This document shows positions 12,860 through 33,120 of a DNA stretch of 64,000 bases, piece by piece. The stretch covers positions 1,096 to 65,095 of the forward strand of contig CAZCSM010000007.1 of assembly GCA_964501355.1 (NCBI GenBank), in the 5' to 3' direction. Source of the DNA: an uncultured Candidatus Saccharibacteria bacterium. GTDB lineage: Bacteria > Patescibacteriota > Dojkabacteria > CAZCSM01. Under the pieces are notes generated by a model. That model saw only the letters and a list, made by a program, of their open reading frames with translations, was not told the origin of the DNA and did no database searches. Every line of letters begins with the position of its first letter. The stretch's first letter is position 1. Both the position numbers and the translations under genes were made by a program.

Positions 12860-15232
12860 TTAATCAAATGGTTGACTCGGAGAAGTCGAAAGAGCTGCAG
12901 CCGATTTCTTTTGCACCAGGATATTCTTCTTAATGACGGAACCTTCTTTCGATACGGAAAACTCCACTTCCCCCGAAGATTCATATTTATCCGAGTCTGC
13001 TGTTATCACATAATTACCTTCATCAAGAATAAAACCAAATCGTCCCGAATTATCACTAACCTGGGTATTGATTAGCTTATTATCTTTTGTATCAAATAAT
13101 CGGACAAATACTCCCGACACCCCATTATTATCAGCCAAAGTTAATACTCTGCCCCAGTCACGCCAGTATAATCGCTTAATTATAACAACAAGTGTTATTA
13201 CGGCAACGTTAACTAACAATATACCGAAATTAAGAATAGATGGATTCACTGCAAGAGAAAGTATAATTAAAATCACACCGATAATATTTATGATTAAGCC
13301 GAGTCCAATAGTAAACAACTTTAATTTATCAAGAATAGTTAATACTGAACCTCTCTTTGCCATAAATTTATACTGCATAGGAATATCGTACGCTATCGTC
13401 CTACTTTCTCTAAAATTGATAGCTCCTCCCAGATATTTTCCTAAAAGATCTTTGCCTGCGGAAGTTTGGTTGACCATTTGGTAATCGGAATGTTCAACGA
13501 CCAACTTATATGAGCCTTCGAAAGCATTGAATCTATACCGTCCATCCAAATCTGTAACGGTTTCATCTAAAACATTTCCGCTAGACGCATCCAATAGACG
13601 AACAACAGCGAACGCAATAGGCCTGTTGTTGTTAGCATAATCATATACAACCCCCCAACCTGTTTTGCGCTTCTTCCTATCGAAGATTACTCCCATTAAT
13701 GTAGAAGTGTGGGTAAGAACGTTTCCTGGACCTCCGAGGAAAAGGGCCGTGGTAACAAATTGCGTGATAAGCGTAGCTCCCACGAAGACTGTTAATTCTT
13801 CATCAATTTCATCAACAATCGCAAGCGCCTTGTCAAAAATAGATGACTGGCCTGATTCATCGTCTCCGGTTAATGGCAGTTCTTCGATATCACTTCCTAT
13901 CTTTGATTTCTCAAATAGACAAACATTACTGCAACCGTCGCTATTATACTGGTTACCATCATCACATTCTTCATCACCACGAACGTTTCCATCACCACAG
14001 TATCCATTAACTTCCGTATAACAAACATTACTACAACCATCTCCATTTAACTGGTTACCATCATCACATTCCTCATCATCCTGCAAAACATTGTCACCGC
14101 AAAAAGCATAGGTCTCTACACCACAAACAACTGAACAACCATCTCCATTCCCGCCATTTCCATCATCACAACCTTCTTCCCGATTTTCTGTAAAGTTTCC
14201 ACAAAGATTTATTTTACAGTTTGCAGAACAACCATCCATATTGCTATGATTGCCATCATCGCATTCTTCTTCATTATTAATTATTCCGTCACCACAATAT
14301 GGAGTGACCTCTTCCTGACAGATAATACTGCAACCATCTCCATTTAATTGATTTCCATCGTCACATTCTTCTCCACCCTCAACCTTCCCATTACCACAAA
14401 ACTCAAGGTACTCAGGAATACACACAGTACTACACCCATCTCCAGATACATAATTGCCATCATCACAATCCTCATCATTTAGAATAAAACCATCTCCGCA
14501 ATATTCATAATTCGTTTCAACACGACAATGCCTATTGCAACCATCGCCATCTTCGCTATTTCCATCATCACAAGTTTCACTGCCGTTTAAAATATTATCT
14601 CCGCAAAAAGGCTCAACAATACATACTACGCTACAGCCATCTCCATTGTTCTGGTTGCCATCATCGCACTCTTCTCCGGAATCTATGTCTCCGTCTCCAC
14701 AGTAAGGAGGATAAGGCTTTTCTACTACGCAAATATTGTTGCAGCCATCGCCGTTGAGCTGATTACCATCATCACAAAACTCACCGCTGGAAATAATTTC
14801 ATCACCACAATATAAGTCGGATGGCTCAATAAAACAGGTCAGAGAACAACCATCACCACTTTCCTGATTCCCATCGTCACAGGTTTCACCCAAGTTCAAA
14901 TCTCCATCCCCACAATAGCCAATTATCTCAATACTGCATCTATTACTACATCCATCTCCATTGACCTGATTTCCATCATCACAGGATTCTCTATAACCAA
15001 CTTTTCCATCACCACAATATTCAAGAGGTTTCTCCAATTTGCATAAGGAACTACATCCATCACCGTTAAAGGTATTTCCATCGTCACATTTTTCACTGGT
15101 TTCGATTATTCCATTTCCACAACCCGAGACTGGAACAGGAGGCGGTGGAAGAGAATCCTCATCCTGACATGTGCTTGAACAACCATCTCCATTTGATTGA
15201 TTTCCATCATCGCATTCTTCGCCCTCATTCAA
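12860..15232 (-). CDS. C-terminal part of a giant surface protein (frameshifted). Myxococcus cysteine-rich repeats (CxxGxxECDDGNxxNGDGCSxxC) x ~17; LPLTGDDE motif; TM; CarbopepD_reg-like domain; 2-TM hairpin; second CarbopepD_reg-like domain.
   Basis: Highly regular cysteine repeats matching the Myxo_disulf_rpt pattern. The C-terminal module is homologous to that of the 3911-aa protein. The listed start is a TTG; the frame stays open upstream to 15316. Confidence 0.7.
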   Translation of the reverse strand: MNEGEECDDGNQSNGDGCSSTCQDEDSLPPPPVPVSGCGNGIIETSEKCDDGNTFNGDGCSSLCKLEKPLEYCGDGKVGYRESCDDGNQVNGDGCSNRCSIEIIGYCGDGDLNLGETCDDGNQESGDGCSLTCFIEPSDLYCGDEIISSGEFCDDGNQLNGDGCNNICVVEKPYPPYCGDGDIDSGEECDDGNQNNGDGCSVVCIVEPFCGDNILNGSETCDDGNSEDGDGCNRHCRVETNYEYCGDGFILNDEDCDDGNYVSGDGCSTVCIPEYLEFCGNGKVEGGEECDDGNQLNGDGCSIICQEEVTPYCGDGIINNEEECDDGNHSNMDGCSANCKINLCGNFTENREEGCDDGNGGNGDGCSVVCGVETYAFCGDNVLQDDEECDDGNQLNGDGCSNVCYTEVNGYCGDGNVRGDEECDDGNQYNSDGCSNVCLFEKSKIGSDIEELPLTGDDESGQSSIFDKALAIVDEIDEELTVFVGATLITQFVTTALFLGGPGNVLTHTSTLMGVIFDRKKRKTGWGVVYDYANNNRPIAFAVVRLLDASSGNVLDETVTDLDGRYRFNAFEGSYKLVVEHSDYQMVNQTSAGKDLLGKYLGGAINFRESRTIAYDIPMQYKFMAKRGSVLTILDKLKLFTIGLGLIINIIGVILIILSLAVNPSILNFGILLVNVAVITLVVIIKRLYWRDWGRVLTLADNNGVSGVFVRLFDTKDNKLINTQVSDNSGRFGFILDEGNYVITADSDKYESSGEVEFSVSKEGSVIKKNILVQKKSAAALSTSPSQPFD

Positions 15233-15297
15233 ATCTCCATCTCCGCAATAATATTCTTCTGATTCCTCTTCACAAACATTACTGCAACCATCTCCAT

Positions 15298-18200
15298 TTA
15301 CTTCATTATCATCACATCACATTCTTCTCCGGTTTCAACTATTCCGTTTCCGCAAACTGAACCAGATGGTGTTTCTTCATCCAGACAAACACTGGAACAT
15401 CCATCTCCATTCGATTGATTTCCGTCATCACACTCTTCACCATCATTTACGTCTCCATCCCCGCAATAATATTCTTCTGATTCCACTTCACAAATATTGC
15501 TGCATCCATCTCCATTGATTTGATTACCATCATCACATTCCTCACCAAGATCCAGATCTCCGTCTCCACAATAAGGTTCCAATTCGCAAAGTGAAGAACA
15601 GCCATCACCATTAGCAGTATTCCCATCATCACATTCCTCTCCTAAGTTCAAATCACCATCACCACAACTGCTGATTGTAAAATCATATTCATATACCCCG
15701 GAAATATTTCCCCAGAAATCAGTAACGGTGAACTCTACAGAATGTGAGCCAACAGGTAATGGTTCTGATAAATCACAGGTAAAATCTTCTTCTAACGAAT
15801 CGAAATCACCATCGTCTGCTTCGCACGAACCAGAAACAGGATCACTATAAACAGTAAATAGGACTGAACTTATCGCACTCAAGGTATCTGTTGCCGTACC
15901 GGTGAAAGAAGGCGAAGGTACAGAATATATGCTTTCAACCTGCATACCCGAAAGATTTGGAGCCTCATCATCGATTTCGTAACGACGCCAAAATAAAGAT
16001 GTATGATCGATATGTTGTTCCAACGGATCGCCTTCGAAGTAAGTACGATAATGTATGAAATCAACCTGATTATCATCTATTGTAATATCTAAAGGAGCAA
16101 CTGTTAGCGGAAAAACCAATACCTCTGAAAGTACCTTCCCCGCGATATATCCCCCATCCAAGTTTAGTAATGAGAACCACGGACTACGATGAGTACCGGA
16201 GGCAGATTCGATATTATTGCCGGAATTGGAGTTCAAATCTATATCAGTCCCGGTTATATAACCCCCAATAGCTAAAACAGGATTAGAATTGTAAACTCCA
16301 ATAGAAATGGATTTTGCACTAGAAATGTCATCTTCTTCATCATCTCTCCCGAAAGCAGACGTCCATCCATATGTGCCATCGTAATTTATCCTTGTAACGA
16401 AAGGGTTGAAACAAGTTTCATCGCCTACAGAGCAAAAATTGGGATAGGTATCATTATATGGCATCTCGGCAAAGTCAGCAGCAAAGTTAACTACTGCATC
16501 GTCATTCCCATAACCACCTGATAAATAAATATTAGATTCAGCATCAAGGGTCATATCGTTAATACTAGCATCCTCAATAATTCTCACCCAATCTAACTGA
16601 TAATCAGAATTATATTTAGCTGCAAATCCTGCCCCAACTGCAGAGGTCTTGTTTTCAACCCCTATACCAGGATCAAAGTCTATTGTTCCGGAAAAACCTC
16701 CAGCAACATATATATCGTCATCTGAATTAACCTTTACTTTTAATATTCGTGAAAGAGACGATTCAACACTATTGGAAAATAATTCTGTCAATGAACCACT
16801 AGACGCATCTACCTCATAGACTGTCATAAAAGAGGATAGCCCTTCAATCTTACTACCCGATGTGAATAATTTCGATTCACTAGAATTCAAATCTAATCCG
16901 TCAAAACCCCAGGAAGTTTCATCATTTGAAGAAACCCAGAGTAAATCACCATCCGATGAAAACTTATTTACATATGCGCCTCTTTTTCCCGAAATAACTG
17001 AAATTAAGCTTTCCCCCGAACCTGGATCACAATCACAAGTACTATAAACACCGGGAGCAAAATAGCGACCAAACTGTCCACTAACATATATGTTATCATT
17101 ACTATCAATCACAACAGAATCGGGTTCAGCAGTACAATTAGAATATTCACCGACAATAATCTTTGACCACATATACTCACTATCAGAATTGTATTTGCTC
17201 AGGAAAACTTCAAAATTATTATCCTCAGAATTGGAGAAGATATCTTCGCCAGCCGTAAAATCAAGATCATTCGTACCTTCAAAATAACCAACCATATAGA
17301 TATTACCATCATCATCTTTTGCGGAATCCATAACAATAGCGCCATCATTTTCATATTCTTGTATCTGGACAACGTTTTTGTAAATAAGACTATCTTGTGC
17401 TGTCTTATCATATTTTACAATAAAAGCATCATTCGAAGTGCCTGCAGTATTTATTTCAACACCATCTCCTGAATCGAAATCTATAGAACCCGAGTAGAAT
17501 CCGTATAGGGACAAGTCTTCATCAGTTAGACTATTTATTAAATTGGGATAATAGAGAGGCAGAAGCTCAACATTTACAAAACCATGATTAGAATCGAACT
17601 GTGCTATAAAGCCCGTAATTGATGTTGGACTAGCTTGTAAAAGCTCTCCATCACCCGGATCCCAATCTATCGCCGATTGTAATCTACCGGAAACGAAAAA
17701 TGATCCGTCAGAATGGAATGCGAACCTTGATGAGAGCGGATAAGAGAATGAATAGTCTTGAGATATAGCACCTTCTACACCAAATGTTTTTACATAGAAA
17801 GTATATTGATTGGGAACACCTTCATAATATGGACCGTATAGCAGTAATTCATCTATCTCTGAAAGGTATTTTATATCCGTAACGTTGGTCTTCTCTATTT
17901 CCTCAATCCAATTAATATTTGCATCCGCGTCAAACTGCATTAGAAAAACCGAGTACCCGGCATTCGTAATAAGGTCCTCTCCAACGCCCCAATCAAAATC
18001 CATATCAGCATTGAATTTGCCGGATAGATATAAATTCCCATCAACATCTACCTCCAGATAATCGGCATAAATATTTCCTTCCGTTGCTCCAAGAGGAACA
18101 GTACCCAAAGATCTGCCCCAGACAAATGTTGCGTTTGTGGCGGAATATTTTCCAACAGCTGAATGACCGAATTCATTTGGATTTTCCTGTATGTCTTCCC

Positions 18201-18828
18201 CCAGCCCCGGATCCATATCTATTTCCGTTCCGTAAAATTCCGTTGTTAGGTATACATAACCATCGTATTCCACTGAGGAATATATTTCTTCGTAGCTATT
18301 TCCATCTAGAGTTATTGTCCAAGCATAATCACCATTGGAAAGTAGTTTAAGAAGAAAACCGTCATAATCACCAGGAACGGATGTTCGGATATCTTCTGAT
18401 ACACCTGTATCAAAATCTACAGAATCATAAAAGGCACCGGAAATATAAATGTTATCATCAGGGGATATGTAAATATCATTCGGCCAGAGATCTCCATCGG
18501 CGGAGGTTTCTACGAATTTAAACCAGATAATCTCACCGTTCTCATCAATCTTATTAATATACAGACATGTGTTTGTACAGGTGTATGTATCGTTCGTACT
18601 TTTATCAATGACTATTTCATCCCCATACAAATATCCGACGACGATTGTGTTATTTTCTGAATCTAGACTGCTAAGACCATTGTAATCGTAAGCACTAGTA
18701 CTGATGGAATTTACCCATTCGTAGTATATTTCGTCAGCGGCAAATGTAACTGATGTTGAAATCAACCCGAAGAACGCAAGACTTATTATCAAAAGGATTA
18801 TTTTTCCGAGTTTATACTTCATTTGCAA
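15298..18828 (-). CDS. N-terminal part of the same giant surface protein: signal peptide, SBBP-type beta-propeller repeats, Ig-like region, then the first cysteine-rich repeats. It ends at a frameshift.
   Basis: Signal peptide [30 protein letters not shown]. Many DFD-x-G...Y motifs of SBBP (seven-bladed beta-propeller) repeats. The last ~120 aa are the same cysteine-rich repeats as the downstream ORF. Removing the 2-bp 'tg' at ~15312-15316 restores ...[15 protein letters not shown]... in the frame of 12860..15232. Confidence 0.7.
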
Positions 18829-18894
18829 TATTTAAAACGGTAAATATTTACCTTATATAAAAGTATCAAATACTCGTGTTTTATACAATGAATA

Positions 18895-21312: not shown

Positions 21313-21384
21313 TACAACTTTCGTGAAATTATCACATACAAATTTTGATATTTAGAAACTTTTTTATTCATAATTCTACTTAAA

Positions 21385-24300
21385 TTACATTCCAAATGGA
21401 GTATCCATATTTTCCAGTTCCTCAGGAAGATCAGTTACCTTGCTCACTCCAATATTTTTCTTTAAAATCTTCTCTTTCTTTTCCACTGTAAATTTCAACT
21501 CTTCTTCCTGTTTGTAATATGGAGATTCTACAAATACTGCATATTCTCCCTCTTCCGCCAAGAATCCATATCTACCCTTATCATCCGTTATTTGCGAGTT
21601 AATCAATTTGTTATCACTCAAATCAAATAGTCTTACAAATACTCCTTCTACTTTATCTCCCATTGGTAACTCAAATACATGTCCCCAGTTCTTTGACAGT
21701 ACATTCGTAATGTATGCAACGATTAGTAATATCAAAATATTAAGTCCTAGAAGAACGAAGTTCCAAATAGTCGGTGCAAAGATTATTCCTAATATCATAA
21801 GTACACCTCCTACTACATTAATCCATAAACCAATCTTGTTCATAAATACCTTAAACTTATCTTTAAAGTTATGATATTTATCATCTTTATCTGCTATTGC
21901 TTTGGGAAGAAGAGGTATGTCATAAGCTACTGCGAAATCATCTCTTACTTCTATCTCTCCTCCTAAATATTTGCCTGTTAAATCGTAACCTTTCATTACA
22001 TCTTCGCTTGCCTGTGGTAATACAAAGTCTGCATGTTCAACACCGATTGTATATTTACCTTCTGGTGCTAAGAATCTATACCTTCCTTCAAGATCTGTAA
22101 CAACTTCTTCTACCATTTCATTAGTTTCTGCTTTGTACAACCTAACAATTGCAAATGGTATTGGTGCTTTTTTATCTATATCAAACACTATTCCCCACCC
22201 TTGCTTCTTCCTCTCTTTATCAAATATAGCTCCCCATAACTGTGGTAGTTTTGGAAAGCCCCCCACTTTCGATAGAAAACCTAAACCCTGAAGCAAAAGC
22301 CCAGAAGTTGTTAAAGCAGGTATCAAAACTCTAGCAATAAAGTCTAACCAATCAAATGACTCCTCATCGCCAGTCTCTGGTAATTCCAAGAGATTGGTAT
22401 ATAGATAATCACGAGTCTTCGCTTGCATTTCATCTTTCCTACAGATAATTCTGTAATGTATCTCAGAATCATCTAGATTGGAGATATCTAATGGTTGCAG
22501 ATACTCAGCTTTGACTTTTGGTTTTATGTTTTCAACTAATTCTCCATATGCAACCGTTTCGCCATAATCCACCAGACATATCATATCCGTACAGCTCGTC
22601 TTCCAACTTACATCTAAATATTTTTCTGAAGATCTTTCATGCAACACGTCTGATATGGCACAAACCATAGGAATTTCGGCCAAGGTTCTAAACATTTGAT
22701 CTGCAGACCTCGTTCTGTAACCATCCTGGTCAGATGCAATAATTTGGAAATGATATGCCGTATCGGAAATTAAATTCTCAAGTAAATAGGAGTGCGTTTC
22801 TTTATAATCACTTGAAGTTAATTCAAACCCATAGGCTATAGTTTCACCATAATTAAGTACTATACTTGCAGGCTTCGTTGTACCGAAAGTAACAATTGCT
22901 GAATTGCTCGTTATGTTTGAAACTTTAATGTTTATTATTTGAACAGCATTAGCACTGGATAAAGTTGAAAAATTTGAAGTCTCAACATCTTGCAAATTTC
23001 CGCTAATTGCCGTAACTCGAATGTAGTACTGAGTGTCGATTGATAAATTATTTAAAGTTTGAGTATGGTTCAATGCAACAGATGAAATCACTGCGCTTTG
23101 TCCATAGGATGTTGTTGTCCCATATTCTAAAATAGCACTTGCCGAAATATTAGTTGTCCAAGATACAATTGCCGAATTAGTAGAAACATTAGATATATTT
23201 AGACTTGTTATCATTAAATCATAACCAAGTGTTGTAAAGGTTTGATCTGAAGATGTAACTTCATTTAGCGACGCATCCCTCGCTAAAATTTGAAAATGAT
23301 AAAGAGTTTCGGCAGTTAATCCTGTTAGTGTAACTGAATGAGTTGTCGATAATTCGTTAATATAATCTGTTGCATTTCCATAAGATGATGTTACTCCATA
23401 AGAAACTTGACCAGTTGTGGGCTCATTGGTTTCCCAGCTAATAACTGCTGATGTCTGAGTTATATTTGTAACTTGAATATTTCTAATTCTTGGTACAACC
23501 ATATCCCTTACTTGCAAAATTGCAGAAGCTTCCTGAGGATCACCATTTAATATAACTGTAATAACTTTATTCTCTGCAACAGTAGAAGAAATTCTACCAA
23601 ACGCTTTACCATTTTCATCCGTCGCTTCGATGGGCTGAATTAAGTTATTACCTGTTCCCGTCGCATTCAAAGTCACAAATGTTCCAATTACAGGATTATC
23701 AAATGAATCCAGTAAAGTAACCTCTATTACAGAAGAAGCCACGCCATCATTATTTATAATAGAAGGAATTAAGTTAATTAATGGGATAACATCGTCTGCA
23801 GACTGCAAAACATCTATGTTCTTCGTATCTGTCAAAGAGCTATTTAAGCTATCAATTATTGTAATCGCTCTGTTTCCAACTGTTTTTAATTGAACTCCAT
23901 TTGTGAAATTTTTTGTACCCATATCATCTGCGACAAAGGTGTAATCAGAAGGTAATACAGCAGCAGAGTCGGACGAACTAAAGGTTACATTTCCTCTATA
24001 TGCAGTATCTACACGACCGTAATCATCTTCTGCATGAACTTGTACCGAAAGAAAACCTCCAGCATTTATTGTGTTAACAGAAGGAGTTAAAACCAATTTC
24101 GTCATCTGTGTCACTATAAAATCTGGTGAAGTTTCTGGATTCCCGCCAAAAGAAACCCATTCGCTAAAAACACCAGAATCATCTCTGACTCTTGCTCGCC
24201 AATGATATTGGGTATTATTTACAAGATCTGTAATTGGAGTTCTTATAACAATCGGTGTTCCCGTAAAATTTGTAGCTACTCCAGTATGAGTTGGAGTTCC

Positions 24301-27300
24301 AGTGAAATCGACACCAACAGGACGCACTTCGAATTGTGGTGTTAAAATATCGGGATTATTAGGATCTGTTGCTGTTAATTCTAAAACGACAGAAGATGGT
24401 GCCGTTCCACCAATTGGAATAGGTTCAAAAGATTCAGGAAGTAATTGCTTCAAGAATTCTGGATTATTCGGATAACCAAAGGGGCCTAAAGCAGTTCCCA
24501 TTTGTCCCGACTGGTAACCGGAACCACCTGAACGACTTATTAAACCAAGATTTACATAATCTGAACCATAAAGAATAGATATTCTACCACCACCACCACC
24601 ACCACCATCAAAAATATCATCTCCACCATTACCACCATCAACACTTATACTTCCAGCCGAAGAGAAATTAACAGTTCCCGCCTTTATAAAAACGCTACCG
24701 CCAGCACCACCGCCACCGCCAGGACTAGATATTCGACCATTGGTACCACTCATATCAATTGCACCAAGAATATTTACAGCCCCGCTCAAGGCGAATATAG
24801 AAAATGCCGAACCTCCAGCTCCTCCAGATGCACCAGCACCAGAAGTACCTCCACCACTACCTAATGATAAAGGACGCAAGGCATCACCATAACTCAACCC
24901 TCCAGCTGTTGTCCCGTTTATTCCATCGCTTGCTCCAAGACCACCATTACCACCATATGCACCGCCACCTCCACCACTACCTTGTCCTCCTCCAGCGATT
25001 GCCCCTGTACTTCCAACCCCAGGACCATCATTCGCCGGAAAGCCCAAACCTTTTCCGTCAATAACGGACCCTTCGCCTAAATCAAAACTATCTAAAACAT
25101 TAAAACTAACACCACCACCGGTTCTCTCATTATACGCATTATCATAATCATCCAAATATTGTTGATATTCGGCAAATGGCATCCCGTAAAAAAGAGCACG
25201 CATTTCTGTTTGAGTTAATGCACGATTATAAACAACAATTTCATCGAAAGTTCCCCATGAGTAATTTCTATCCACACGTCCACCGTTACCCAAGAATTGA
25301 ATAGGTGCAGTTACCTGAGACAGAGATGTTCCCACTAGCTCACCATTCACATAGAAATTAGTTTGACCACTATTGGATACTGCTCCGATATGATTCCAAC
25401 CTGTTAATGTGTTTACATTGTATCCAGAACTGTAGAATCCACCATTTAAGATCCCGAGAAGCCCATTACTGTTAACGACAATATGATGAGATGTTAAATC
25501 TGTATTATCTGCTAAAAGTATTCTGTATCCACCATAAGTGCCTGTATTTAACGGGAAGTTGGACCACGCACTTATTGAGTATGTTGAACCAAGATTTAAT
25601 GGTGATATTTCAAGCTTCTGTAACAAGTCTGTTTTTCTTGCTTTTCCATACTTACCATCAACAATTGTAGAGCCAAAAGAATTTGCATGATTTAAATTGA
25701 CACTCGCATCACATGCATCAAATGGATCTAGTTCTTCTACGATACATAGATTATCTTCCGTTTCGTTAAAATGCAAAAGCAGTGTAGTATATGTGTCTGC
25801 AACAATTTCCCTATCGACCTCAGGAAGTTCTGGATATACTAAGCCAGAAGGCAGTTTTGATGTATCACCAAACATTCGCGCTCGAACATTTTGAGAAATA
25901 AATACATTATCGAAATTATATGTTCCTGCAAAGAAATCTGTTCCTTCCGCACCGATAACATTACCGTTATTTAAATACAAATCACCATATTGCTGCTCGG
26001 ACTGTTTGATAAATATCGTTCCCGGACCACCTAAGTATCCGTAAGATTGAACTCGATCATTCCCAAAATCGAATCCATTATTTTCAGAGTAATAAATAGC
26101 TACTCGACCACCTCCACCATCATATTGGGCAGAAGATCCCTCATATCCATTAGCCTTAATCAACCCTGTACCTGATATTGTCCCAGCATTAATTAGGACC
26201 GATCCTCCACTACCTCCTCCCCAATTTAAACATTCTTCTCCTGCACCAGTCCTGACTCCAGCACCACCATTAGCAGATATTATTCCATTTATTAATAAAG
26301 TATCAATAACATCAATGTTTACACCCCCGCCTCCAGCACCACCAATCATATATGTCCATGCAATGCCAGAACAGTCATTTCCTGCACTTCCTAAATCTTT
26401 CGGAGAATATAGATCGCCGTATGTTAATGTTTTAGATTGAGCCTGCCCATGTCCTCCATATGTACCTCCTCCATAATTTGTTGTTCCAGATGGCCAGCCT
26501 GGTCCTTGAGGTTCCCTGTAACGTCCATAGCCATTACCATCCGCAGTAATTATTGAACCTTCGGAAACCTGAAGATTTGCTACACTTAACTCCGCACTAT
26601 AATCATTATCCCAAACATCATCGTCGCTTATATGAGACTCGAAAAATATTATACTGCTTAAGTTCATTGTCAAGTTTCTGAATTCGTATTTATCTTCATA
26701 GCCCCGGGCCCATGTATTGGGAATCAATGTTAACGCGCCAGAATATGTTGATCCCAAAGTTAAATCCTCTACACCCGTGTATTGACCATTCAATATAAGA
26801 TGAATACCGTCAGCAACAAACAAATCATTTCCTGATAATAATGTTCCATCTATTTGGAGAGAAGGTATGGTTGAATCCCCAGAGATTTCAGAACTTGAAT
26901 CTATTTCTAAGATAGAATTTGTACCCAATATAACCAAATCTCCATATCGAGATAAATTCACAGTATTGAATTTGTATTCATCTTCGATAAGCCCCGCTTC
27001 GTAACCACTTACTCCACCGTTATCAATATATAAATCACCATTTTCACTTGCTTCTGTAAAATAACTAACTTGTTCTACATATACCGTTCCAGGACCAGCA
27101 TTATTACCCCTTGCCATTATGTGCTCTCTGTCTACAAGAAATCCATAATTTTGTTCATAATACAAAGCAACCCTACCACCCGATCCTGAATATGCAACGG
27201 TACCACCATTTGCTGAAATAATACCATTTCCTAACGAAATTAAGTCTTTAACTTTAATATGAACACTTCCCCCGCTACCACCTCCCGATGAACTTGTGCC

Positions 27301-30300
27301 ACCATACATATTGTCACCATTTGAAGAAATGACACCATTCAAAGTAAGGGTGTTATCAACCGTCAAGTCTATAGCACCTCCGCCACTACCACCAATAAGA
27401 GAGGTAGAAGCACTAGAACCACAACTTCCTAGATGAGAAGGTCTAAAAACAGAACCATATATCTGACCCCCCTTATAAGGCCAATAACGAGTAGAAATTC
27501 CTCCATCTCGATACGATTCAGAAAAACCCCCATAACTACCTCCCGCCCGAAGATCTGTAAATCCAGGACCACAGTAAGAGGAATTTAATGGAAAGCGTGC
27601 CCCATAACCATATCCCATTCCATTTGCGTGTAAACTACCACCTGAATCAATCGTTAAATCAGAGACGGATAAATGTACTCCAAAATCATTCTCCCAATCC
27701 GTATCCATAGAATTGTAACTTATGCACCGCAATGTTCCTTGTGGTCCTATGTGTAAATTTTCAAAACTGTATGGATTATCCATTCCTCTTGCCCAAGTCT
27801 TTGCGTACAAAGTCATACCAGATGGAGACAGCAAACCAATATCAATATCTGATACACCTGCAATATCTCCATTAATCCCCAAATCAACACTTTCGATACC
27901 CAAAGCACCCTCACCAGTATATGTCAAGGTTCCATCAATTTTAGCAAATGGAACCGTTAAATCCCCCTGAAAGCCATCACCCGAATTTATCGTTAATATA
28001 GATGTTTCACCAAAGAAGATAACATCTCCATATCCTGTAAGATTTACACTTCCGAAACTATAATTCCCTTCAGGTACACCTGCAGATAAGCCCTGCACAG
28101 CATTATTGTCAACAAACAAGTCTCCATTATAACTTGGACTTGACGACAATGAAGACAACTGTTCTATGTATACTGTACCAGGACCTGATTCATTAGTACC
28201 TCTTGCATATATATTTGAAGTGCTTAATGGGAAACCCATATTATTAACATAATAAACTGCTATCCTGCCCCCTGCACCATCTCCATCACTTCCAGTGCCA
28301 GGATTCTTACCGTTTGCCTGAATAATTCCATCACCAACCAGATTCTGAGCTCGTAAAAATATTGAACCACCGGAACCAGCCCTGTCCTCACATCCAATGG
28401 CACTAGTCCTATAATACCCGCCACCATTACTGGTTATTGTTCCTAACAATGTTAATGAGCCGTTAACAGTTATTTCTATAGCACCGCCTCCAGCTCCGCC
28501 GTTACCACCCCTAGCACCGGCACCAGAACAATTAGACCCGCCACTACCAAGTAAGAGTGGTTCGTATATGCTACCGAAGGGATCTATTGTGTTAGATTCT
28601 CCATATCCGCCATATGTAGCACCAGCGTAAGACTTATAGCCAGGCCCCTTTTCGGATGTTCTAACCCGTCCATAACCTAATTCATTTGCATCTATAAAAC
28701 CTCCTGATAGCACTGTAATGTTTTCTGCGACCAACGGAACAACATAGTCATTCGTTTCATCTCTAGAATCGAGAGTGTCTCCAGACTCATAACTTCTAAT
28801 AAACAAGGAACTTCCACCGAACACTTCTATATCACCGAACACATATTGTGAAGTGGTGCCATATGCCCAAGTTCCCGAGAGCAAAGTTACGGCACCTGTA
28901 ACTGAATTACCAATCCGTAAATTAGTTACACCGCTCAAAGACCCCCCTACTATTAGATTTACACCATTCACATTCAAAGTGTCAGGTAGCAAATTTATAA
29001 ATGAACCATCTACTAGTAGCCCGGGAGAAGATGCATCTCCCGATAAAACTGAACTATCAGTTATTGTTAATGATGATGTCGAACCAATAAACCTTACATG
29101 ACCCCCTCTTGATAATTTAATCTTGGAGAAATTATAATCTCCGCTCAATACACCAGCATAGTTTGATTTAAGTAAATACCTGGCCTCGTCAAAAGTATCA
29201 GCTCCCTTGTAATGAACTATATCATTATTATCAACGTACAACTTACCCTGACTTGGATTATCAATCGCACGATCCTCTATATATACAGTACCCGCACCAG
29301 CACTTGAAACTTTGTCATCCCCATAATCTCCTCCATATGACCTTATAAAGTTCTGGACATTAGTGTCCGACATTGATAAACCGATTAGATTGTCGTAATA
29401 TATGGCAATTCTTCCACCGCCACCATCTGCAGTGCCGTAATAAGAACTAGTTCCTGATCCATTCGCAACAATCAAAGCACTGCTACTAAGCTCTAATAAC
29501 TCAGCATCTATATAAACACTTCCCCCAGAACCACGCAGTAAACCATTACTTGTAATCATTCCTGACAAACTCAGAGATCCTGTACCGTAAGTGTCTTTTG
29601 CGATAAGCTTAATCGCCCCACCACCTCTAGAATTGGCCAGTGTGCTTGAAGATCCTAAATCAGAGGGGGAAAATACACTTCCGTATACACCATTTTGGTA
29701 ATACGAACCATATCCGCCATAACTTGCTCCCGTGGTTCCGCGCCCCGCCCCCCTACCCGTACCATACCCCAATCCATTAGCATTAAATGTTGCATTCTCA
29801 TCAACCGTAATTGTTTTAGCTTCAAGTGTAACACCATAATCATCTGTCCAAACATCATTGGCATTATCGTATCCATAAAAATCAACAAAGCTGCCTCCTC
29901 TCACACGAAATGTTTCGAAAATATATTGTCCTCCAGTTCCCCAATTATTAGCGTGCAATCCCAAACGTGCCGTTGCCACAGCTCCAACATCGACATTGCT
30001 CACACCGCTTAGTGAGCCAAACCATTGCAAGTCTACGTTATTAACTGTGAATGTATCTATGCCCAAATAATTAAATGAACCACGCACAAGAATCTTTGTT
30101 GTGCCATCACCGATAATGGTCGAATTATTTGCTATACTTAAACTTGAGCCGCTACCTAAAAATTCCACATGACCATTTCTCTTTGTATCTATAGAAGAGA
30201 AATTGTAGATACCTGCTGTTATTGTAGCGGACTTTTCACAATTATTTCCGCCGACCAAACAAACCCTCGATGCGGCATCGACTATTAATTTTCCTTGTCC

Positions 30301-33120
30301 AGGAGAATGAATGCCTTTATTTTCAAAATATATTGTTCCTGGAGATCCATAATATGCTCCACCAGAAAACTCTCCACCACCATAAGCCTGTATATTTGTT
30401 GGAAATGAACCTCCACTCAACACCTCGTATTTTATTGAAACACGCCCTCCAGAACCGCCTCCACGCCCAGCTCTACCGTTTCCACCATTAGCCTTAATGT
30501 ATCCGTCGCCAGAAAAAACACTGGTATTTATTAAAACGCTTCCTCCTGTTGCCCCCCCTCTGTTATTCAATGTACCAGAATCGTTCAAACCATTTGCTGA
30601 TATTGTACCGTTGACACTTGTCGTTCCAGTTATTTCTAATTTAATAGCCCCACCACCGCTTACACCGGTTGTTGCACCACCACTACCAAGTGAAGTTGGA
30701 GATAAAACATCTCCATATGACGACCCATCGCCAATAATCGCTCCATATCCATATCCCCCGTAACTTGATCCCCCAGATTTATAACCCGGCCCCTTAGTTG
30801 AGAGGTAGCCTTGTCCATCAGCACTTACAAAAGCCCCTGTTTCAACAGTCAAATTATCAGCTAAAACAGTTACTCCAAAATCATTGTCATAAATACCGTC
30901 GTTGTTGTTGTATGACTCCAATGTCAAGGTTTTCCCTGTTTTAACAACTATTGATATGCCTCTACAATCAATTATTCCAGCATTTACTGGAGTTGCCGAC
31001 CATGTTGTATTCGTATCAATTATTCCATCCGCATCAGGACAAGATCCAAAGGATTCTACAACAGCTAAGGTATTAGAATACCCTTCAACCAAATCTTCAT
31101 CTACACCCTTAATTTTGATACCTTCTATTGTATCATACGTTGCATTATCAATAGTTATAGTACCATTAATAAGTGTTGCTGTAGGATTAGTACATTCTGC
31201 ACCAACACAAAATATACCCGTTCCTGGTAATCCTATATCAGAAGCCAAGACCGCTGACAAATCAATAATTTCATTATTCACTAAAACTAAATTATCAAAT
31301 GAGTCTCGAGCATTAACAGTAATTATAAATTCTTGACCAATAAATACAGCATTCGGAACAATTATTTCATAATACGAAGTATGATCAGATGCAGCGGATG
31401 CCGTAAAAATCATAGGTGAACCCGAAAGACCGCTTCTTGTTGCACTTGCAGTATTATTGTTAATTCCAGCTGTTGGACCAAGGGTTAGAATTGTGGAAAC
31501 AAGCCCAAAACGATTAGAACGTACTAACCCGACATCGGTTGACCCACCCCCTAAAACTGCCGCCCACGTAACATCATGATAATAGACCGGAATTCCAGCG
31601 ACATCTGTCACCATTGCAACAAATGGTTCTGTGAGAGGGTTTAAAACTGTACCTGTTTGATTATCGCCCGATATTTTAATCAACTGTGTGGGCACATCAG
31701 ATATCATGAAATCTGCATCAGTTTCTACGTTTTCTCCGAATGAGACCCATTCACTCACCGCACCAGCTTCATCACGAACGCGAACCTGCCAATGGTAACG
31801 CTTACTTTTAGGCAAATTCTCTATCAGCCATGTAATTGGAACCTCTACTCCTGCATACGCAATTTGTGCACCAGTATGTGTAGGCGCATTTATAAAAGGA
31901 GTATTTATTTCCTGAATTTCAATTTGTGGGTAAAGAATGTCTGTTCCATCTACATCCGATACATTCATTCGAAACTGGATATCATCACTTCGTGTAGACT
32001 CTCCGACATTAAGCTTGTTTGTTACATAAACACCGTCAATTAGTTCTCTATAAGCATATTGCTCAAGAGCAGTCGGAACATTTGGATAACAAGTAGGACC
32101 GATTAAAGTTCCTTCTTGACCATTTTGCAAACCACCAATACCGCCCGATACCACAGCAGAAAGTGTCCCAACTGCAATATTATTACTTTGTGTACAAAGC
32201 AATACAACCCTTCCACCGCCGCCGCCGCCGCCACGAACTCCTGCATCAATAGCATCTCCACCAATTGCAGAAACGTCACCACCTGCACCAGACAAAATTC
32301 TCGCATCTACCCAAACAGTACCACCCGAACCGCCACCACCTGAAGCTCCAAACAAAACCTCTTCAGAGGGAAGACCGTTTGCGTTAATAGAACCATTTAT
32401 TGTAACTTCCCCCGTTGTTGCATCGAGACAATCTGTTTTCTCCGTACCAGTAAGGGTATTACACGTTGAATCGATTTTCAAGAAACCTCCACCTGCACCA
32501 CCAACTGCTCCAGTACCGGCACTCCCTCCACCACTCCCCAAATAATTGGGAAGTAAACTATCCCCATACACATCACCCCCAGCACCTCCCAGTTCTACAC
32601 CCGAAGGAGACCCCTCACCTCCTGCACCTCCATAACCACCTCCACCTCCACCAGAAAGAACCGCTCCATCTCCACCCGCTCCTGCTCCTCTAGAAATAGA
32701 ATACCCCGTACCATCAGCGTTTATAACCGCACCTACCTCCAAATCCAAGCTTCCGACCAACCAAGTAACACCGTAATCATTTTCCCAATTATCATCACCA
32801 TTATCATAACCTTGAATAGTTATTGTAACACCTGTATCGACAACGATATGGGTCATAGAACAGTCAACAACACCACCCGTTGATATAAAAGATGCAGCAT
32901 TGAGTGTAACACTTTCACCTATCGTTAACGTACTTCCAGCATAATTACCCAATGATGCAGGACAACTATCCGCCGCTCGAAGTCCGAACAATGTTTTCCA
33001 ATCAATAGTGAAGATTAATATAATAATAAGAAATGCAGCAAGTATAACGCCAGCATATCTGAACGCTTTAATATTACGCTGAATAAATTCCTTCCATTTT
33101 GCAAGGTTCTCTCGAGTCAT
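21385..33120 (-). CDS. Giant (3911 aa) secreted/surface adhesin-like protein.
   Basis: N-terminal signal anchor. About 8 units of ~370 aa containing xDxWxNDYGVxL...NGxGYG plus a 'GGGAI(K/E/D)L...NGxISANG' motif, resembling Pmp-type beta-helix repeats. Gly-rich stretches. A LamG/concanavalin-like domain. A bacterial Ig (Big) domain. 4 tandem FN3-like domains. Two copies of a YHW(Q/R)xRVRDxxGxxSEWVSFG domain. C-terminal LPETGDEE, a TM segment, and a double CarbopepD_reg module homologous to the C-terminus of the 12860 ORF. Confidence 0.8.
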   Translation of the reverse strand: MTRENLAKWKEFIQRNIKAFRYAGVILAAFLIIILIFTIDWKTLFGLRAADSCPASLGNYAGSTLTIGESVTLNAASFISTGGVVDCSMTHIVVDTGVTITIQGYDNGDDNWENDYGVTWLVGSLDLEVGAVINADGTGYSISRGAGAGGDGAVLSGGGGGGYGGAGGEGSPSGVELGGAGGDVYGDSLLPNYLGSGGGSAGTGAVGGAGGGFLKIDSTCNTLTGTEKTDCLDATTGEVTINGSINANGLPSEEVLFGASGGGGSGGTVWVDARILSGAGGDVSAIGGDAIDAGVRGGGGGGGRVVLLCTQSNNIAVGTLSAVVSGGIGGLQNGQEGTLIGPTCYPNVPTALEQYAYRELIDGVYVTNKLNVGESTRSDDIQFRMNVSDVDGTDILYPQIEIQEINTPFINAPTHTGAQIAYAGVEVPITWLIENLPKSKRYHWQVRVRDEAGAVSEWVSFGENVETDADFMISDVPTQLIKISGDNQTGTVLNPLTEPFVAMVTDVAGIPVYYHDVTWAAVLGGGSTDVGLVRSNRFGLVSTILTLGPTAGINNNTASATRSGLSGSPMIFTASAASDHTSYYEIIVPNAVFIGQEFIITVNARDSFDNLVLVNNEIIDLSAVLASDIGLPGTGIFCVGAECTNPTATLINGTITIDNATYDTIEGIKIKGVDEDLVEGYSNTLAVVESFGSCPDADGIIDTNTTWSATPVNAGIIDCRGISIVVKTGKTLTLESYNNNDGIYDNDFGVTVLADNLTVETGAFVSADGQGYLSTKGPGYKSGGSSYGGYGYGAIIGDGSSYGDVLSPTSLGSGGATTGVSGGGAIKLEITGTTSVNGTISANGLNDSGTLNNRGGATGGSVLINTSVFSGDGYIKANGGNGRAGRGGGSGGRVSIKYEVLSGGSFPTNIQAYGGGEFSGGAYYGSPGTIYFENKGIHSPGQGKLIVDAASRVCLVGGNNCEKSATITAGIYNFSSIDTKRNGHVEFLGSGSSLSIANNSTIIGDGTTKILVRGSFNYLGIDTFTVNNVDLQWFGSLSGVSNVDVGAVATARLGLHANNWGTGGQYIFETFRVRGGSFVDFYGYDNANDVWTDDYGVTLEAKTITVDENATFNANGLGYGTGRGAGRGTTGASYGGYGSYYQNGVYGSVFSPSDLGSSSTLANSRGGGAIKLIAKDTYGTGSLSLSGMITSNGLLRGSGGSVYIDAELLELSSSALIVANGSGTSSYYGTADGGGGRIAIYYDNLIGLSMSDTNVQNFIRSYGGDYGDDKVSSAGAGTVYIEDRAIDNPSQGKLYVDNNDIVHYKGADTFDEARYLLKSNYAGVLSGDYNFSKIKLSRGGHVRFIGSTSSLTITDSSVLSGDASSPGLLVDGSFINLLPDTLNVNGVNLIVGGSLSGVTNLRIGNSVTGAVTLLSGTWAYGTTSQYVFGDIEVFGGSSLFIRSYESGDTLDSRDETNDYVVPLVAENITVLSGGFIDANELGYGRVRTSEKGPGYKSYAGATYGGYGESNTIDPFGSIYEPLLLGSGGSNCSGAGARGGNGGAGGGAIEITVNGSLTLLGTITSNGGGYYRTSAIGCEDRAGSGGSIFLRAQNLVGDGIIQANGKNPGTGSDGDGAGGRIAVYYVNNMGFPLSTSNIYARGTNESGPGTVYIEQLSSLSSSPSYNGDLFVDNNAVQGLSAGVPEGNYSFGSVNLTGYGDVIFFGETSILTINSGDGFQGDLTVPFAKIDGTLTYTGEGALGIESVDLGINGDIAGVSDIDIGLLSPSGMTLYAKTWARGMDNPYSFENLHIGPQGTLRCISYNSMDTDWENDFGVHLSVSDLTIDSGGSLHANGMGYGYGARFPLNSSYCGPGFTDLRAGGSYGGFSESYRDGGISTRYWPYKGGQIYGSVFRPSHLGSCGSSASTSLIGGSGGGAIDLTVDNTLTLNGVISSNGDNMYGGTSSSGGGSGGSVHIKVKDLISLGNGIISANGGTVAYSGSGGRVALYYEQNYGFLVDREHIMARGNNAGPGTVYVEQVSYFTEASENGDLYIDNGGVSGYEAGLIEDEYKFNTVNLSRYGDLVILGTNSILEIDSSSEISGDSTIPSLQIDGTLLSGNDLFVADGIHLILNGQYTGVEDLTLGSTYSGALTLIPNTWARGYEDKYEFRNLTMNLSSIIFFESHISDDDVWDNDYSAELSVANLQVSEGSIITADGNGYGRYREPQGPGWPSGTTNYGGGTYGGHGQAQSKTLTYGDLYSPKDLGSAGNDCSGIAWTYMIGGAGGGGVNIDVIDTLLINGIISANGGAGVRTGAGEECLNWGGGSGGSVLINAGTISGTGLIKANGYEGSSAQYDGGGGRVAIYYSENNGFDFGNDRVQSYGYLGGPGTIFIKQSEQQYGDLYLNNGNVIGAEGTDFFAGTYNFDNVFISQNVRARMFGDTSKLPSGLVYPELPEVDREIVADTYTTLLLHFNETEDNLCIVEELDPFDACDASVNLNHANSFGSTIVDGKYGKARKTDLLQKLEISPLNLGSTYSISAWSNFPLNTGTYGGYRILLADNTDLTSHHIVVNSNGLLGILNGGFYSSGYNVNTLTGWNHIGAVSNSGQTNFYVNGELVGTSLSQVTAPIQFLGNGGRVDRNYSWGTFDEIVVYNRALTQTEMRALFYGMPFAEYQQYLDDYDNAYNERTGGGVSFNVLDSFDLGEGSVIDGKGLGFPANDGPGVGSTGAIAGGGQGSGGGGGAYGGNGGLGASDGINGTTAGGLSYGDALRPLSLGSGGGTSGAGASGGAGGSAFSIFALSGAVNILGAIDMSGTNGRISSPGGGGGAGGSVFIKAGTVNFSSAGSISVDGGNGGDDIFDGGGGGGGRISILYGSDYVNLGLISRSGGSGYQSGQMGTALGPFGYPNNPEFLKQLLPESFEPIPIGGTAPSSVVLELTATDPNNPDILTPQFEVRPVGVDFTGTPTHTGVATNFTGTPIVIRTPITDLVNNTQYHWRARVRDDSGVFSEWVSFGGNPETSPDFIVTQMTKLVLTPSVNTINAGGFLSVQVHAEDDYGRVDTAYRGNVTFSSSDSAAVLPSDYTFVADDMGTKNFTNGVQLKTVGNRAITIIDSLNSSLTDTKNIDVLQSADDVIPLINLIPSIINNDGVASSVIEVTLLDSFDNPVIGTFVTLNATGTGNNLIQPIEATDENGKAFGRISSTVAENKVITVILNGDPQEASAILQVRDMVVPRIRNIQVTNITQTSAVISWETNEPTTGQVSYGVTSSYGNATDYINELSTTHSVTLTGLTAETLYHFQILARDASLNEVTSSDQTFTTLGYDLMITSLNISNVSTNSAIVSWTTNISASAILEYGTTTSYGQSAVISSVALNHTQTLNNLSIDTQYYIRVTAISGNLQDVETSNFSTLSSANAVQIINIKVSNITSNSAIVTFGTTKPASIVLNYGETIAYGFELTSSDYKETHSYLLENLISDTAYHFQIIASDQDGYRTRSADQMFRTLAEIPMVCAISDVLHERSSEKYLDVSWKTSCTDMICLVDYGETVAYGELVENIKPKVKAEYLQPLDISNLDDSEIHYRIICRKDEMQAKTRDYLYTNLLELPETGDEESFDWLDFIARVLIPALTTSGLLLQGLGFLSKVGGFPKLPQLWGAIFDKERKKQGWGIVFDIDKKAPIPFAIVRLYKAETNEMVEEVVTDLEGRYRFLAPEGKYTIGVEHADFVLPQASEDVMKGYDLTGKYLGGEIEVRDDFAVAYDIPLLPKAIADKDDKYHNFKDKFKVFMNKIGLWINVVGGVLMILGIIFAPTIWNFVLLGLNILILLIVAYITNVLSKNWGHVFELPMGDKVEGVFVRLFDLSDNKLINSQITDDKGRYGFLAEEGEYAVFVESPYYKQEEELKFTVEKKEKILKKNIGVSKVTDLPEELENMDTPFGM

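What the first reader, a model, noticed from the sequence alone, without database searches (positions are those of the whole stretch)
12860..33120. A ~20-kb block of three co-directional giant surface proteins whose two largest members share a C-terminal module: LPxTG(D/E)E, TM, and a double CarbopepD_reg domain.
The last ~300 aa of the 3911-aa protein and of the SBBP/Cys-repeat protein are clearly homologous. Shared elements include GWGIVFD/GWGVVYD, VTDLEGRYRF/VTDLDGRYRF, TGKYLGGEIEV/LGKYLGGAINF, AYDIPL/AYDIPM and GVFVRLFDLSDNKLINSQITDDKGRYGF/GVFVRLFDTKDNKLINTQVSDNSGRFGF. Their ectodomains are unrelated. In both proteins an LPxTG motif followed by acidic residues (LPETGDEE, LPLTGDDE) precedes a hydrophobic segment and a basic cluster, as in a sortase sorting signal. 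The protein then continues for ~250 aa through a transthyretin-like domain, a 2-TM hairpin and a second transthyretin-like domain. Canonical sortase substrates end shortly after the TM and its charged tail. This looks like a dedicated anchoring/processing cassette reused on different giant adhesins. I do not recognise it as a described architecture.
Basis: partly seen in the sequence, partly recalled or inferred. Interest (0 to 1): 0.75.

Follow-up and report, generated by a model that had tools for sequence, protein, structure and literature searches.

The report
Sortase motif plus extended membrane-anchor cassette
Two unrelated large surface proteins of a likely Patescibacteria (CPR) bacterium end in the same 330-residue cassette, which joins a sortase cleavage signal to a three-helix membrane anchor carrying two small beta-sandwich domains predicted to sit inside the cell; the anchor is widespread but undescribed, and its pairing with a sortase signal is unusual.

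Summary
The last ~335 aa of the 3911-aa protein and of the SBBP/Cys-repeat protein are 40% identical (E=3e-72), and their ectodomains are unrelated. Each tail reads: LPxTG, acidic patch, TM1, basic cluster, CarboxypepD_reg domain, two-helix hairpin, second CarboxypepD_reg domain.

One correction: the Cys-repeat gene is split by a 2-nt frameshift into ORFs of 1176 and 790 aa.

The TM–sandwich–hairpin–sandwich unit is not rare. An exhaustive profile search gave 2095 cluster representatives at E<=1e-30. The 237 members I inspected carry it almost always at the extreme C-terminus of proteins of 271–3951 aa. The few named relatives are all Patescibacteria. No Pfam or NCBIfam model, solved structure or paper found describes the unit as a whole.

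Charge bias across 163 members places both sandwich domains in the cytoplasm.

LPxTG sits just upstream in only about 14% of members, confined to a few clades, but is 37-fold enriched there. A sortase gene and two other LPxTG proteins lie in the same window.

Best reading: a lineage-wide membrane-anchor cassette which, in this subclade, is coupled to sortase cleavage and wall attachment, leaving a 330-aa membrane remnant. Cleavage and the cassette's cytoplasmic role are untested.

The parts
21385..33120 (-). 3911-aa surface protein. N-terminal signal-anchor at aa 23-41 (window 32998..33054). Mostly unannotated ectodomain with Laminin_G_3, Big_1 and two FN3/Pur_ac_phosph_N domains. Ends in the C-terminal cassette.
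22360..22383 (-). LPETGDEE (aa 3580-3587): sortase-type motif with an acidic patch, 9 aa before TM1.
22201..22341 (-). TM1 (aa 3594-3616), a juxtamembrane helix, and the basic cluster DKERKKQ (aa 3634-3640).
21910..22200 (-). First CarboxypepD_reg / transthyretin-like beta-sandwich (aa 3641-3737). It starts with GWGIVFD directly after the basic cluster.
21697..21834 (-). TM2, a 5-aa loop (PTIWN) and TM3, forming the hairpin (aa 3763-3808).
21388..21690 (-). Second CarboxypepD_reg / SdrD_B-like beta-sandwich (aa 3811-3894) and the terminal ..TPFGM motif.
18895..21312 (-). 805-aa FG-GAP/Big_13 protein with a canonical C-terminal sorting signal: LPQTG at 19015..19029, a hydrophobic stretch, and RFSIRRMTRRR.
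15298..18828 (-). N-terminal 1176-aa part of the SBBP/NHL-like and DUF4215 Cys-repeat protein, with a signal peptide. It is cut off by a 2-nt frameshift at about 15300-15312.
12860..15232 (-). C-terminal 790-aa part of the same gene: 12 DUF4215 repeats followed by the cassette.
12863..13879 (-). Second copy of the cassette. LPLTGDDE at 13856..13879; TM1 at 13730..13792; DRKKRKT at 13661..13681; sandwich 1 at 13376..13660; TM2-loop-TM3 at 13166..13318; sandwich 2 at 12908..13159; terminal ..QPFD at 12863..12877.
52396..53094 (+). Sortase gene (232 aa): N-terminal TM, His in YLYAHS, Cys in TLQTC. It is the candidate enzyme for the LPxTG sites.
54297..55829 (-). 510-aa CAP/Big_13 surface protein. 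It has the same LPQTGDEE + amphipathic spacer (54534..54557), but a different and shorter anchor: TM, KKGIKRK, then a second TM that ends the protein.

Best explanation
The shared tail is a composite of two separable parts.

Part 1 is a C-terminal membrane-anchor cassette that is widespread in Patescibacteria (CPR). It reads TM1, basic cluster, beta-sandwich, TM2/TM3 hairpin, beta-sandwich. The ectodomain lies outside the cell and both sandwich domains lie in the cytoplasm, each starting within a few residues of a TM helix.

Part 2 is a sortase sorting signal that TM1 and its basic cluster complete. It consists of LPxTG followed by an acidic and amphipathic spacer.

Proposed sequence of events. 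The large proteins are exported by Sec through their N-terminal signals. Translocation stops at TM1. The hairpin inserts into the membrane and the two sandwiches fold in the cytoplasm, holding the precursor firmly in the membrane. A membrane sortase, such as the one at 52396..53094, then cuts between T and G. It transfers the ectodomain to the wall and leaves a ~330-aa three-TM remnant that begins with GDEE or GDDE.

In the roughly 85% of family members without LPxTG, the cassette alone is the anchor.

Status of each step:
- Shown: homology, domain content, reuse on unrelated ectodomains, enrichment of LPxTG, and presence of a sortase gene.
- Inferred from sequence statistics: membrane topology.
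- Inferred by analogy: cleavage, wall attachment, and the 'firm retention / rivet' role of the cytoplasmic domains.
For: Homology. The two tails are 40% identical over 338 aa, E=3e-72, and the alignment begins exactly at LPxTG. The ectodomains are unrelated.

Spread. There are 9867 representatives at E<=1e-3 and 2095 at E<=1e-30. 209 of 237 inspected members carry the module within 45 aa of the C-terminus, on hosts of 271-3951 aa. Named relatives are Paceibacterota, Staskawiczbacteria and Saccharibacteria.

Topology, from mean K+R counts over 163 members:
- after TM1: 4.3
- before TM2: 3.9
- hairpin loop (mean 4.7 aa long): 0.44
- after TM3: 2.9
- before TM1: 0.96 K+R, with 1.5 D+E
Both window proteins have N-terminal signals.

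Sortase link. LPxTG is found 27 times in 17,483 juxta-module residues, against 5 times in 118,861 residues elsewhere. One clade has the exact canonical geometry: LPxTG, then the TM, then KEKK, then WG. The variants LPITA and LPETS are also sortase-type. The window holds a sortase (Pfam E=1.3e-17; TIGR01076 43.9 bits against a cutoff of 39.35) and two further LPxTG proteins.
Against: - No experiment or proteomic data shows cleavage.
- Most family members lack LPxTG, so the module does not need sortase.
- In some clades LPxTG lies 40-70 aa before TM1, which is further than in studied substrates.
- CarboxypepD_reg/CnaB-like domains are normally extracytoplasmic, so a cytoplasmic location is unusual. 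It rests on the positive-inside rule only.
- AlphaFold2 pTM is 0.46, so the arrangement of the domains is not established.
- One of the two window copies sits in a frameshifted gene.
- The sortase lies 19 kb away, and no sortase was within 10 kb of the one relative whose context I examined.
Confidence: 0.55

Rival explanations
1. The cassette is only a non-covalent membrane anchor and LPxTG is never cut. On this reading LPxTG is a relic, or a structural or juxtamembrane motif, and the proteins stay tethered by the three TM helices.
For: About 85% of module-bearing proteins have no LPxTG. Close relatives of the window module (P0032, P0040, P0047) lack it while keeping the neighbouring juxtamembrane sequence. 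A three-TM anchor makes covalent attachment unnecessary for retention.
Against: LPxTG is 37-fold enriched at exactly this position. It is kept in at least four clades, with sortase-compatible variants (LPITA, LPETS) and with the acidic residues typical of sortase substrates. The same LPxTGDEE signal occurs on another anchor in the window. A sortase gene is present.
Confidence: 0.2
2. The remnant matters more than the anchor. On this reading sortase cleavage releases a three-TM, two-domain membrane protein. Its cytoplasmic sandwiches and terminal [ST]PF[GSA] motif then recruit or signal to a cytoplasmic partner, so that ectodomain delivery is reported to the cell or localised.
For: A terminal PF motif is found in 41 of 216 C-terminal-module proteins, against about 2% expected. 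It is strongly associated with LPxT[GAS]: 24 of 32 against 17 of 184, odds ratio 29. Both domains are predicted to be cytoplasmic. From my own knowledge, cleaved sorting-signal peptides are sensed by an intramembrane two-component system in Streptococcus gordonii.
Against: The association is not corrected for shared ancestry, and the motif and LPxTG occupy the same half of the tree. No partner gene is evident next to the genes; the flanks are an HD-domain protein, an APH kinase, an AAA/ABC ATPase and tRNA synthetases. Conserved residues in the sandwiches are the usual structural ones of the fold.
Confidence: 0.15
3. The topology is the opposite of what I propose. On this reading the hydrophobic stretch after LPxTG does not span the membrane and the two sandwich domains are extracellular stalk domains, as CnaB/SdrD-B domains are elsewhere, with only the hairpin in the membrane.
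For: The fold family is almost always extracytoplasmic. The best structural matches include SdrD B repeats and pilin CnaB domains. TM1 of the 3911-aa protein is only moderately hydrophobic (1.5-1.6).
Against: The strongest and most conserved basic clusters flank the sandwich domains, while the hairpin loop is about 5 aa long and uncharged. TM1 hydropathy averages 1.96 across the family. With LPxTG upstream, the arrangement of TM plus K/R tail is the canonical stop-transfer signal. A hairpin alone, with an uncharged cytoplasmic turn, would be an odd anchor.
Confidence: 0.08

Closest known systems
Canonical LPXTG cell-wall sorting signal of Gram-positive surface proteins (for example S. aureus protein A, LPETGEENPF...; quoted from my own knowledge)
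   Same: An N-terminal signal. LPxTG followed by acidic residues. A hydrophobic segment. A K/R cluster on the cytoplasmic side. A sortase gene in the genome.
   Different: Canonical signals end a few residues after the K/R cluster. Here the chain continues for about 270 aa through a beta-sandwich, two more TM helices and a second beta-sandwich. In one window copy and in several clades the spacer between LPxTG and the TM is 24-70 aa.
CarboxypepD_reg (PF13620), SdrD B-repeat and CnaB 'prealbumin-like' domains
   Different: Those domains are extracellular stalk or regulatory domains that lie N-terminal to the LPXTG motif. Here they lie C-terminal to it, each abuts a TM helix, and both are predicted to be cytoplasmic.
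Retention module of giant RTX adhesins (LapA, MpIBP) with regulated proteolytic release (an analogy drawn from my own knowledge)
   Same: What it may work like: a compact folded domain on the inner side of a membrane barrier holds a very large adhesin in place, and a dedicated protease site next to it decides the adhesin's fate.
   Different: RTX adhesins are found in Gram-negative outer membranes, use type 1 secretion, carry the module at the N-terminus, and have unrelated sequences. Cleavage there releases the adhesin rather than attaching it to the wall.
Transthyretin-like domains next to TM helices in NOMO and EMC7
   Same: A beta-sandwich of the same fold adjoins a membrane helix.
   Different: Those are eukaryotic and lumenal, have a single TM, and show no sequence relationship beyond the fold.

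Membership tests
Sortase substrate (LPXTG cell-wall sorting signal) | N-terminal secretion signal | tested here: met
   The 3911-aa protein has a K/R-rich N-terminus followed by a TM at aa 23-41. The 1176-aa part begins [28 protein letters not shown]|ADE. The 790-aa ORF on its own has no signal, because of the frameshift.
Sortase substrate (LPXTG cell-wall sorting signal) | LPxTG pentapeptide | tested here: met
   LPETG and LPLTG are present. The motif is 37-fold enriched at this position across the family.
Sortase substrate (LPXTG cell-wall sorting signal) | Hydrophobic segment, then a positively charged cluster, directly downstream | tested here: met
   TM1 starts 9 aa after LPxTG in the 3911-aa protein and 24 aa after it in the 790-aa ORF. 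It is followed by DKERKKQ and DRKKRKT respectively.
Sortase substrate (LPXTG cell-wall sorting signal) | The protein ends shortly after the charged tail | tested here: not met
   271 and 266 residues follow the basic cluster. They include two folded domains and two more TM helices.
Sortase substrate (LPXTG cell-wall sorting signal) | Cognate sortase encoded by the organism | tested here: met
   The ORF at 52396..53094 matches PF04203 at E=1.3e-17 and TIGR01076 at 43.9 bits against a cutoff of 39.35. It reaches the cutoff of no sortase class model. Specificity for these sites is unknown.
Sortase substrate (LPXTG cell-wall sorting signal) | Cleavage between T and G, with transfer to peptidoglycan | not testable with these tools
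   This needs biochemistry or proteomics.
CarboxypepD_reg (PF13620) | Score above the Pfam gathering threshold | tested here: met
   51.9 and 64.9 bits against 32.3, with two stretches in each tail.
CarboxypepD_reg (PF13620) | Transthyretin-like beta-sandwich fold | tested here: met
SdrD B / CnaB stalk domains of MSCRAMMs | Pfam SdrD_B above its cutoff | tested here: met
   37.5 and 48.7 bits against 29.7.
SdrD B / CnaB stalk domains of MSCRAMMs | Extracellular position, N-terminal to the sorting signal | tested here: not met
   The domains lie C-terminal to LPxTG and TM1. Charge bias places them in the cytoplasm.
Transthyretin / HIUase | Score above the family cutoff | tested here: not met
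   PF00576 scores 19.3 bits against 25.3. TIGR02962 scores 21.5 bits against 87.45.

The most novel reading that the evidence does not exclude
The LPxTG-coupled version of the cassette may be a two-sided device. Outside the cell, sortase hands the large ectodomain to the wall. Inside, the remaining three-TM protein, with its two cytoplasmic beta-sandwiches and conserved terminal [ST]PF[GSA] motif, engages a cytoplasmic partner. Surface-protein delivery would then be sensed, localised or quality-controlled from within. This would be a function for the 'leftover' part of a sortase substrate that has no counterpart in studied Gram-positive bacteria.
Probability: 0.15. Interest if true: 0.85.

Novelty: new variant of a known kind. 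Interest (0 to 1): 0.6.

Why it matters
Sortase substrates are defined by a short C-terminal signal, and tools that predict wall-anchored proteins assume the protein ends there. If these sites are cut, that rule does not hold in Patescibacteria. Such predictors would then miss some of the largest surface proteins of these organisms, which live attached to other cells.

The underlying anchor cassette is also worth attention. It appears in thousands of cluster representatives, has no name, and places a normally extracellular fold inside the cell right against the membrane. It is a concrete handle on how ultra-small episymbiotic bacteria hold and deploy their adhesins. It also gives a defined peptide/enzyme pair (LPETGDEE and the sortase in this window) that can be tested in vitro.

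Tried and rejected
- The search for related loci with the five-sequence alignment failed because it had no conserved stretch. A closer alignment gave only 3 loci in the species-representative genomes.
- The look-up of encoding contigs found no record for P0010 or P0011. The listing of cluster members showed only that the window comes from an unnamed 66,339-bp NCBI contig. The organism's placement therefore rests on the names of relatives.
- The first AlphaFold2 run, with 5 sequences, was poor (pLDDT 58.7). It was replaced by the 32-sequence run.
- The afdb50 fold library was unavailable.
- NCBIfam has no model for the module.
- Literature searches on LPXTG/sortase in CPR, C-terminal extensions of sorting signals, carboxypeptidase regulatory-like domains in CPR, and giant CPR surface proteins found nothing that describes this unit. 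The Streptococcus suis WapA paper, which looked like a precedent, does not describe an internal LPXTG.
- The context of one LPETG-type relative (P0056) showed no sortase within 10 kb.
- Rejected: chance similarity (E=3e-72); a recent duplication that includes the ectodomains (no similarity upstream of LPxTG); further copies of the module in the window (a six-frame HMM search finds only the two).
Full report
**What is in the window**

Four ORFs lie head to tail on the minus strand between 12860 and 33120:
- 21385..33120, 3911 aa
- 18895..21312, 805 aa
- 15298..18828, 1176 aa
- 12860..15232, 790 aa

The last two are one gene. The 1176-aa ORF ends inside a DUF4215 cysteine repeat (...[10 protein letters not shown]). 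The repeat continues in another frame ([14 protein letters not shown]...) and runs straight into the 790-aa ORF. Removing two bases from GAATGTGAT[GT]GATGATAAT restores the repeat consensus. The intended product would be about 1,988 aa. In the sequence as given it is broken, either by a real mutation or by an assembly error.

The 805-aa FG-GAP/Big_13 protein has an ordinary sorting signal: LPQTG, a hydrophobic stretch and RRMTRRR, 44 aa from the end.

**The shared tail**

The last 349 aa of the 3911-aa and 790-aa products align at 40% identity over 338 aa, E=3e-72. The alignment begins at ELPETGDEES / ELPLTGDDES. Upstream of that point the proteins share nothing (best E=0.028). The LPxTG motif is therefore part of the shared unit.

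Pfam finds two CarboxypepD_reg domains per tail, above the gathering score, and SdrD_B as well. NCBIfam has no model for the unit. Hydropathy and AlphaFold2 (32-sequence alignment, mean pLDDT 81, sandwich domains above 90) agree on this order:
1. LPxTG and an acidic patch
2. one long TM helix
3. a short juxtamembrane helix ending in a basic cluster (DKERKKQ / DRKKRKT)
4. a beta-sandwich starting GWGxV(F/Y)D
5. a helical hairpin with a 5-6 aa loop
6. a second beta-sandwich starting (N/D)WGxV
7. a short tail ending ..PFG(M) or ..PFD

**How common the unit is**

A word-indexed search with one tail found only six relatives. An exhaustive HMMER search with a five-sequence profile, against 1.84 billion cluster representatives, gave 9867 hits at E<=1e-3 and 2095 at E<=1e-30. 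Some of the top hits are long proteins made of many CarboxypepD_reg repeats.

Among the 152 proteins held after that search (the 150 listed hits plus two), 124 matched the module profile end to end. After I dropped nine with more than 250 aa following the match, which are repeat proteins, 115 remained. A second, profile-seeded search added 113 more.

Over the 237 module-matching proteins from both sets:
- 209 have 45 aa or fewer after the module.
- Host lengths run from 271 to 3951 aa, with a median of about 690.
- 27 hosts exceed 1500 aa and 25 are essentially the module alone.

Ectodomains include DUF4215, FN3/Pur_ac_phosph_N, PKD, Big-type and many unannotated regions.

The few hits that carry a source name are from Candidatus Paceibacterota and Staskawiczbacteria. 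One genome locus is from Candidatus Saccharibacteria. The closest named relatives of the window's sortase are from the 'Patescibacteria group' and Candidatus Dojkabacteria. The window itself is an unnamed 66-kb NCBI contig. I therefore take the organism to be a member of the Patescibacteria (CPR); this is an inference.

**Topology**

Both window proteins have N-terminal export signals. Mean counts across 163 family members:

| Region | K+R | D+E | Length |
|---|---|---|---|
| 15 aa before TM1 | 0.96 | 1.5 | 15 aa |
| After TM1 | 4.3 | 0.65 | about 19 aa |
| 15 aa before TM2 | 3.9 | – | 15 aa |
| Hairpin loop | 0.44 | – | 4.7 aa |
| After TM3 | 2.9 | – | about 8 aa |

By the positive-inside rule the ectodomain is outside and both beta-sandwiches are cytoplasmic, each directly abutting a TM helix. 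This is unusual for a fold that is nearly always extracytoplasmic. It is an inference, not a measurement.

**Is the LPxTG meaningful?**

In the 115 proteins of the first set, LPxTG occurs 27 times in the 17,483 residues that precede the module (26 proteins). It occurs 5 times in the other 118,861 residues. That is 1.54 against 0.042 per 1000 aa. Including LPITA, LPETS and LPFTS, 31 proteins carry a sortase-type motif.

On a neighbour-joining tree of the module, these proteins fall in about four clades. The largest clade, marked by a DNPxVE...VAP juxtamembrane motif, has none. In the second set only 1 of 113 has LPxTG.

The geometry comes in two forms:
- One clade is exactly canonical: LPxTG, then immediately the TM, then KEKK, then WG.
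- The window clade and others have LPxTG followed by three or four acidic residues and an amphipathic stretch of 9 to about 70 aa before TM1.

The window also encodes a sortase at 52396..53094 (PF04203 E=1.3e-17; TIGR01076 above its cutoff; no class model reached). It further encodes a 510-aa CAP/Big_13 protein with the same LPQTGDEE + 'SIFAELVERV' spacer. That protein ends in a different anchor: TM, KKGIKRK and a second TM. The sortase-type signal and the beta-sandwich anchor are thus separable parts that this lineage combines.

**Best explanation**

The cassette is first of all a lineage-wide C-terminal membrane anchor. In the window's subclade, TM1 and its basic cluster also serve as the retention part of a sortase signal. 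Sortase would cut T|G and attach the ectodomain to the wall. A ~330-aa three-TM remnant would be left in the membrane.

I suggest that the two compact cytoplasmic domains, set directly against TM1 and TM3, act as stoppers that resist extraction of very large adhesins. This is a loose functional analogy to the retention module of RTX adhesins. That last step is speculation. I put overall confidence at 0.55.

**Rivals**

- LPxTG is never cut (confidence 0.2).
- The remnant has a cytoplasmic signalling or recruiting role (0.15).
- The topology is inverted (0.08).

The second rival draws on an unexpected observation. A terminal [ST]PF[GSA] motif is present in 41 of 216 C-terminal-module proteins, against about 2% expected. 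It is present in 24 of 32 LPxT[GAS] proteins against 17 of 184 others (odds ratio 29). That test is not corrected for shared ancestry.

**Comparison with what is known**

The tail meets every sequence criterion of a sortase substrate except one: it does not end after the charged tail. I therefore do not file it as a canonical LPXTG anchor. I describe it as a variant, in which a sorting signal is embedded in a larger anchor.

The domains are bona fide CarboxypepD_reg members. I found no Pfam or NCBIfam model, solved structure or paper that covers the whole unit or its link to LPxTG. The library searched does not include most subscription-journal papers, so this absence is not proof.

**Verdict**

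The cassette is reused and undescribed, but it is neither restricted to giant adhesins nor intrinsically tied to sortase.
- Novelty: a new variant of a known kind.
- Interest: 0.6.

Noticed in passing
window 15300-15312 (minus strand): A 2-nt insertion inside a DUF4215 repeat splits the SBBP/Cys-repeat gene into ORFs of 1176 and 790 aa. The sequence context is a short GTGAT/GAT repeat. It could be slippage, a real pseudogene or an assembly error.
   Followed up: partly
window 54297-55829 (minus strand): A 510-aa CAP (SCP/YkwD-like) + Big_13 protein carries LPQTGDEE, a 28-aa amphipathic spacer, a TM, KKGIKRK and a second TM that ends the protein. It is a second kind of non-canonical, extended sorting signal in the same organism. 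Its spacer (SIFAELVERV) resembles the one in the 790-aa ORF (SIFDKALAIV).
   Followed up: partly
window 52396-53094 (plus strand): A sortase gene that reaches the general sortase model but none of the class A-F models. It scores closest to class D, at 45.7 bits against a cutoff of 165. Relatives at 40-46% identity are named Patescibacteria or Dojkabacteria. Next to it lie a 279-aa polytopic membrane protein (53456-54295) and a 764-aa surface protein with a C-terminal TM and an acidic tail (55931-58225); neither has a Pfam hit.
   Followed up: partly
extreme C-termini: window 21388-21405 and 12863-12877; relatives P0001, P0003, P0016, P0020 and others: A conserved terminal [ST]PF[GSA] motif is found in 41 of 216 module proteins, against about 2% expected. 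It is strongly associated with the presence of LPxTG (odds ratio 29, not corrected for phylogeny). A short linear motif at a predicted cytoplasmic C-terminus hints at a binding partner.
   Followed up: partly
relatives P0048-P0148 (for example P0113, P0066, P0074): The largest clade of the module family, which lacks LPxTG, has its own conserved juxtamembrane motif just before the hydrophobic region: DNPxVE, 6-10 residues, then (V/I)AP. Its function is unknown. It could be an alternative processing or packing element.
   Followed up: no
window 37311-39320 (minus strand): A class II Asp/Asn-type tRNA synthetase is fused to a C-terminal DUF2000 domain.
   Followed up: no
L004 5856-10014: Upstream of the LPETG-type relative P0056 lies a run of ten short, overlapping, co-directional called genes, one with a Laminin_G_3 hit. 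It looks like one large surface-protein gene fragmented by frameshifts or by a gene-calling problem.
   Followed up: no
window 21385-33120, aa 1 to about 2500 of the 3911-aa protein: Roughly 2,500 N-terminal residues have almost no Pfam match; the only one is a weak Ig_Rha78A_N hit. The region also holds one internal chance LPGTG at window 31230.
   Followed up: no
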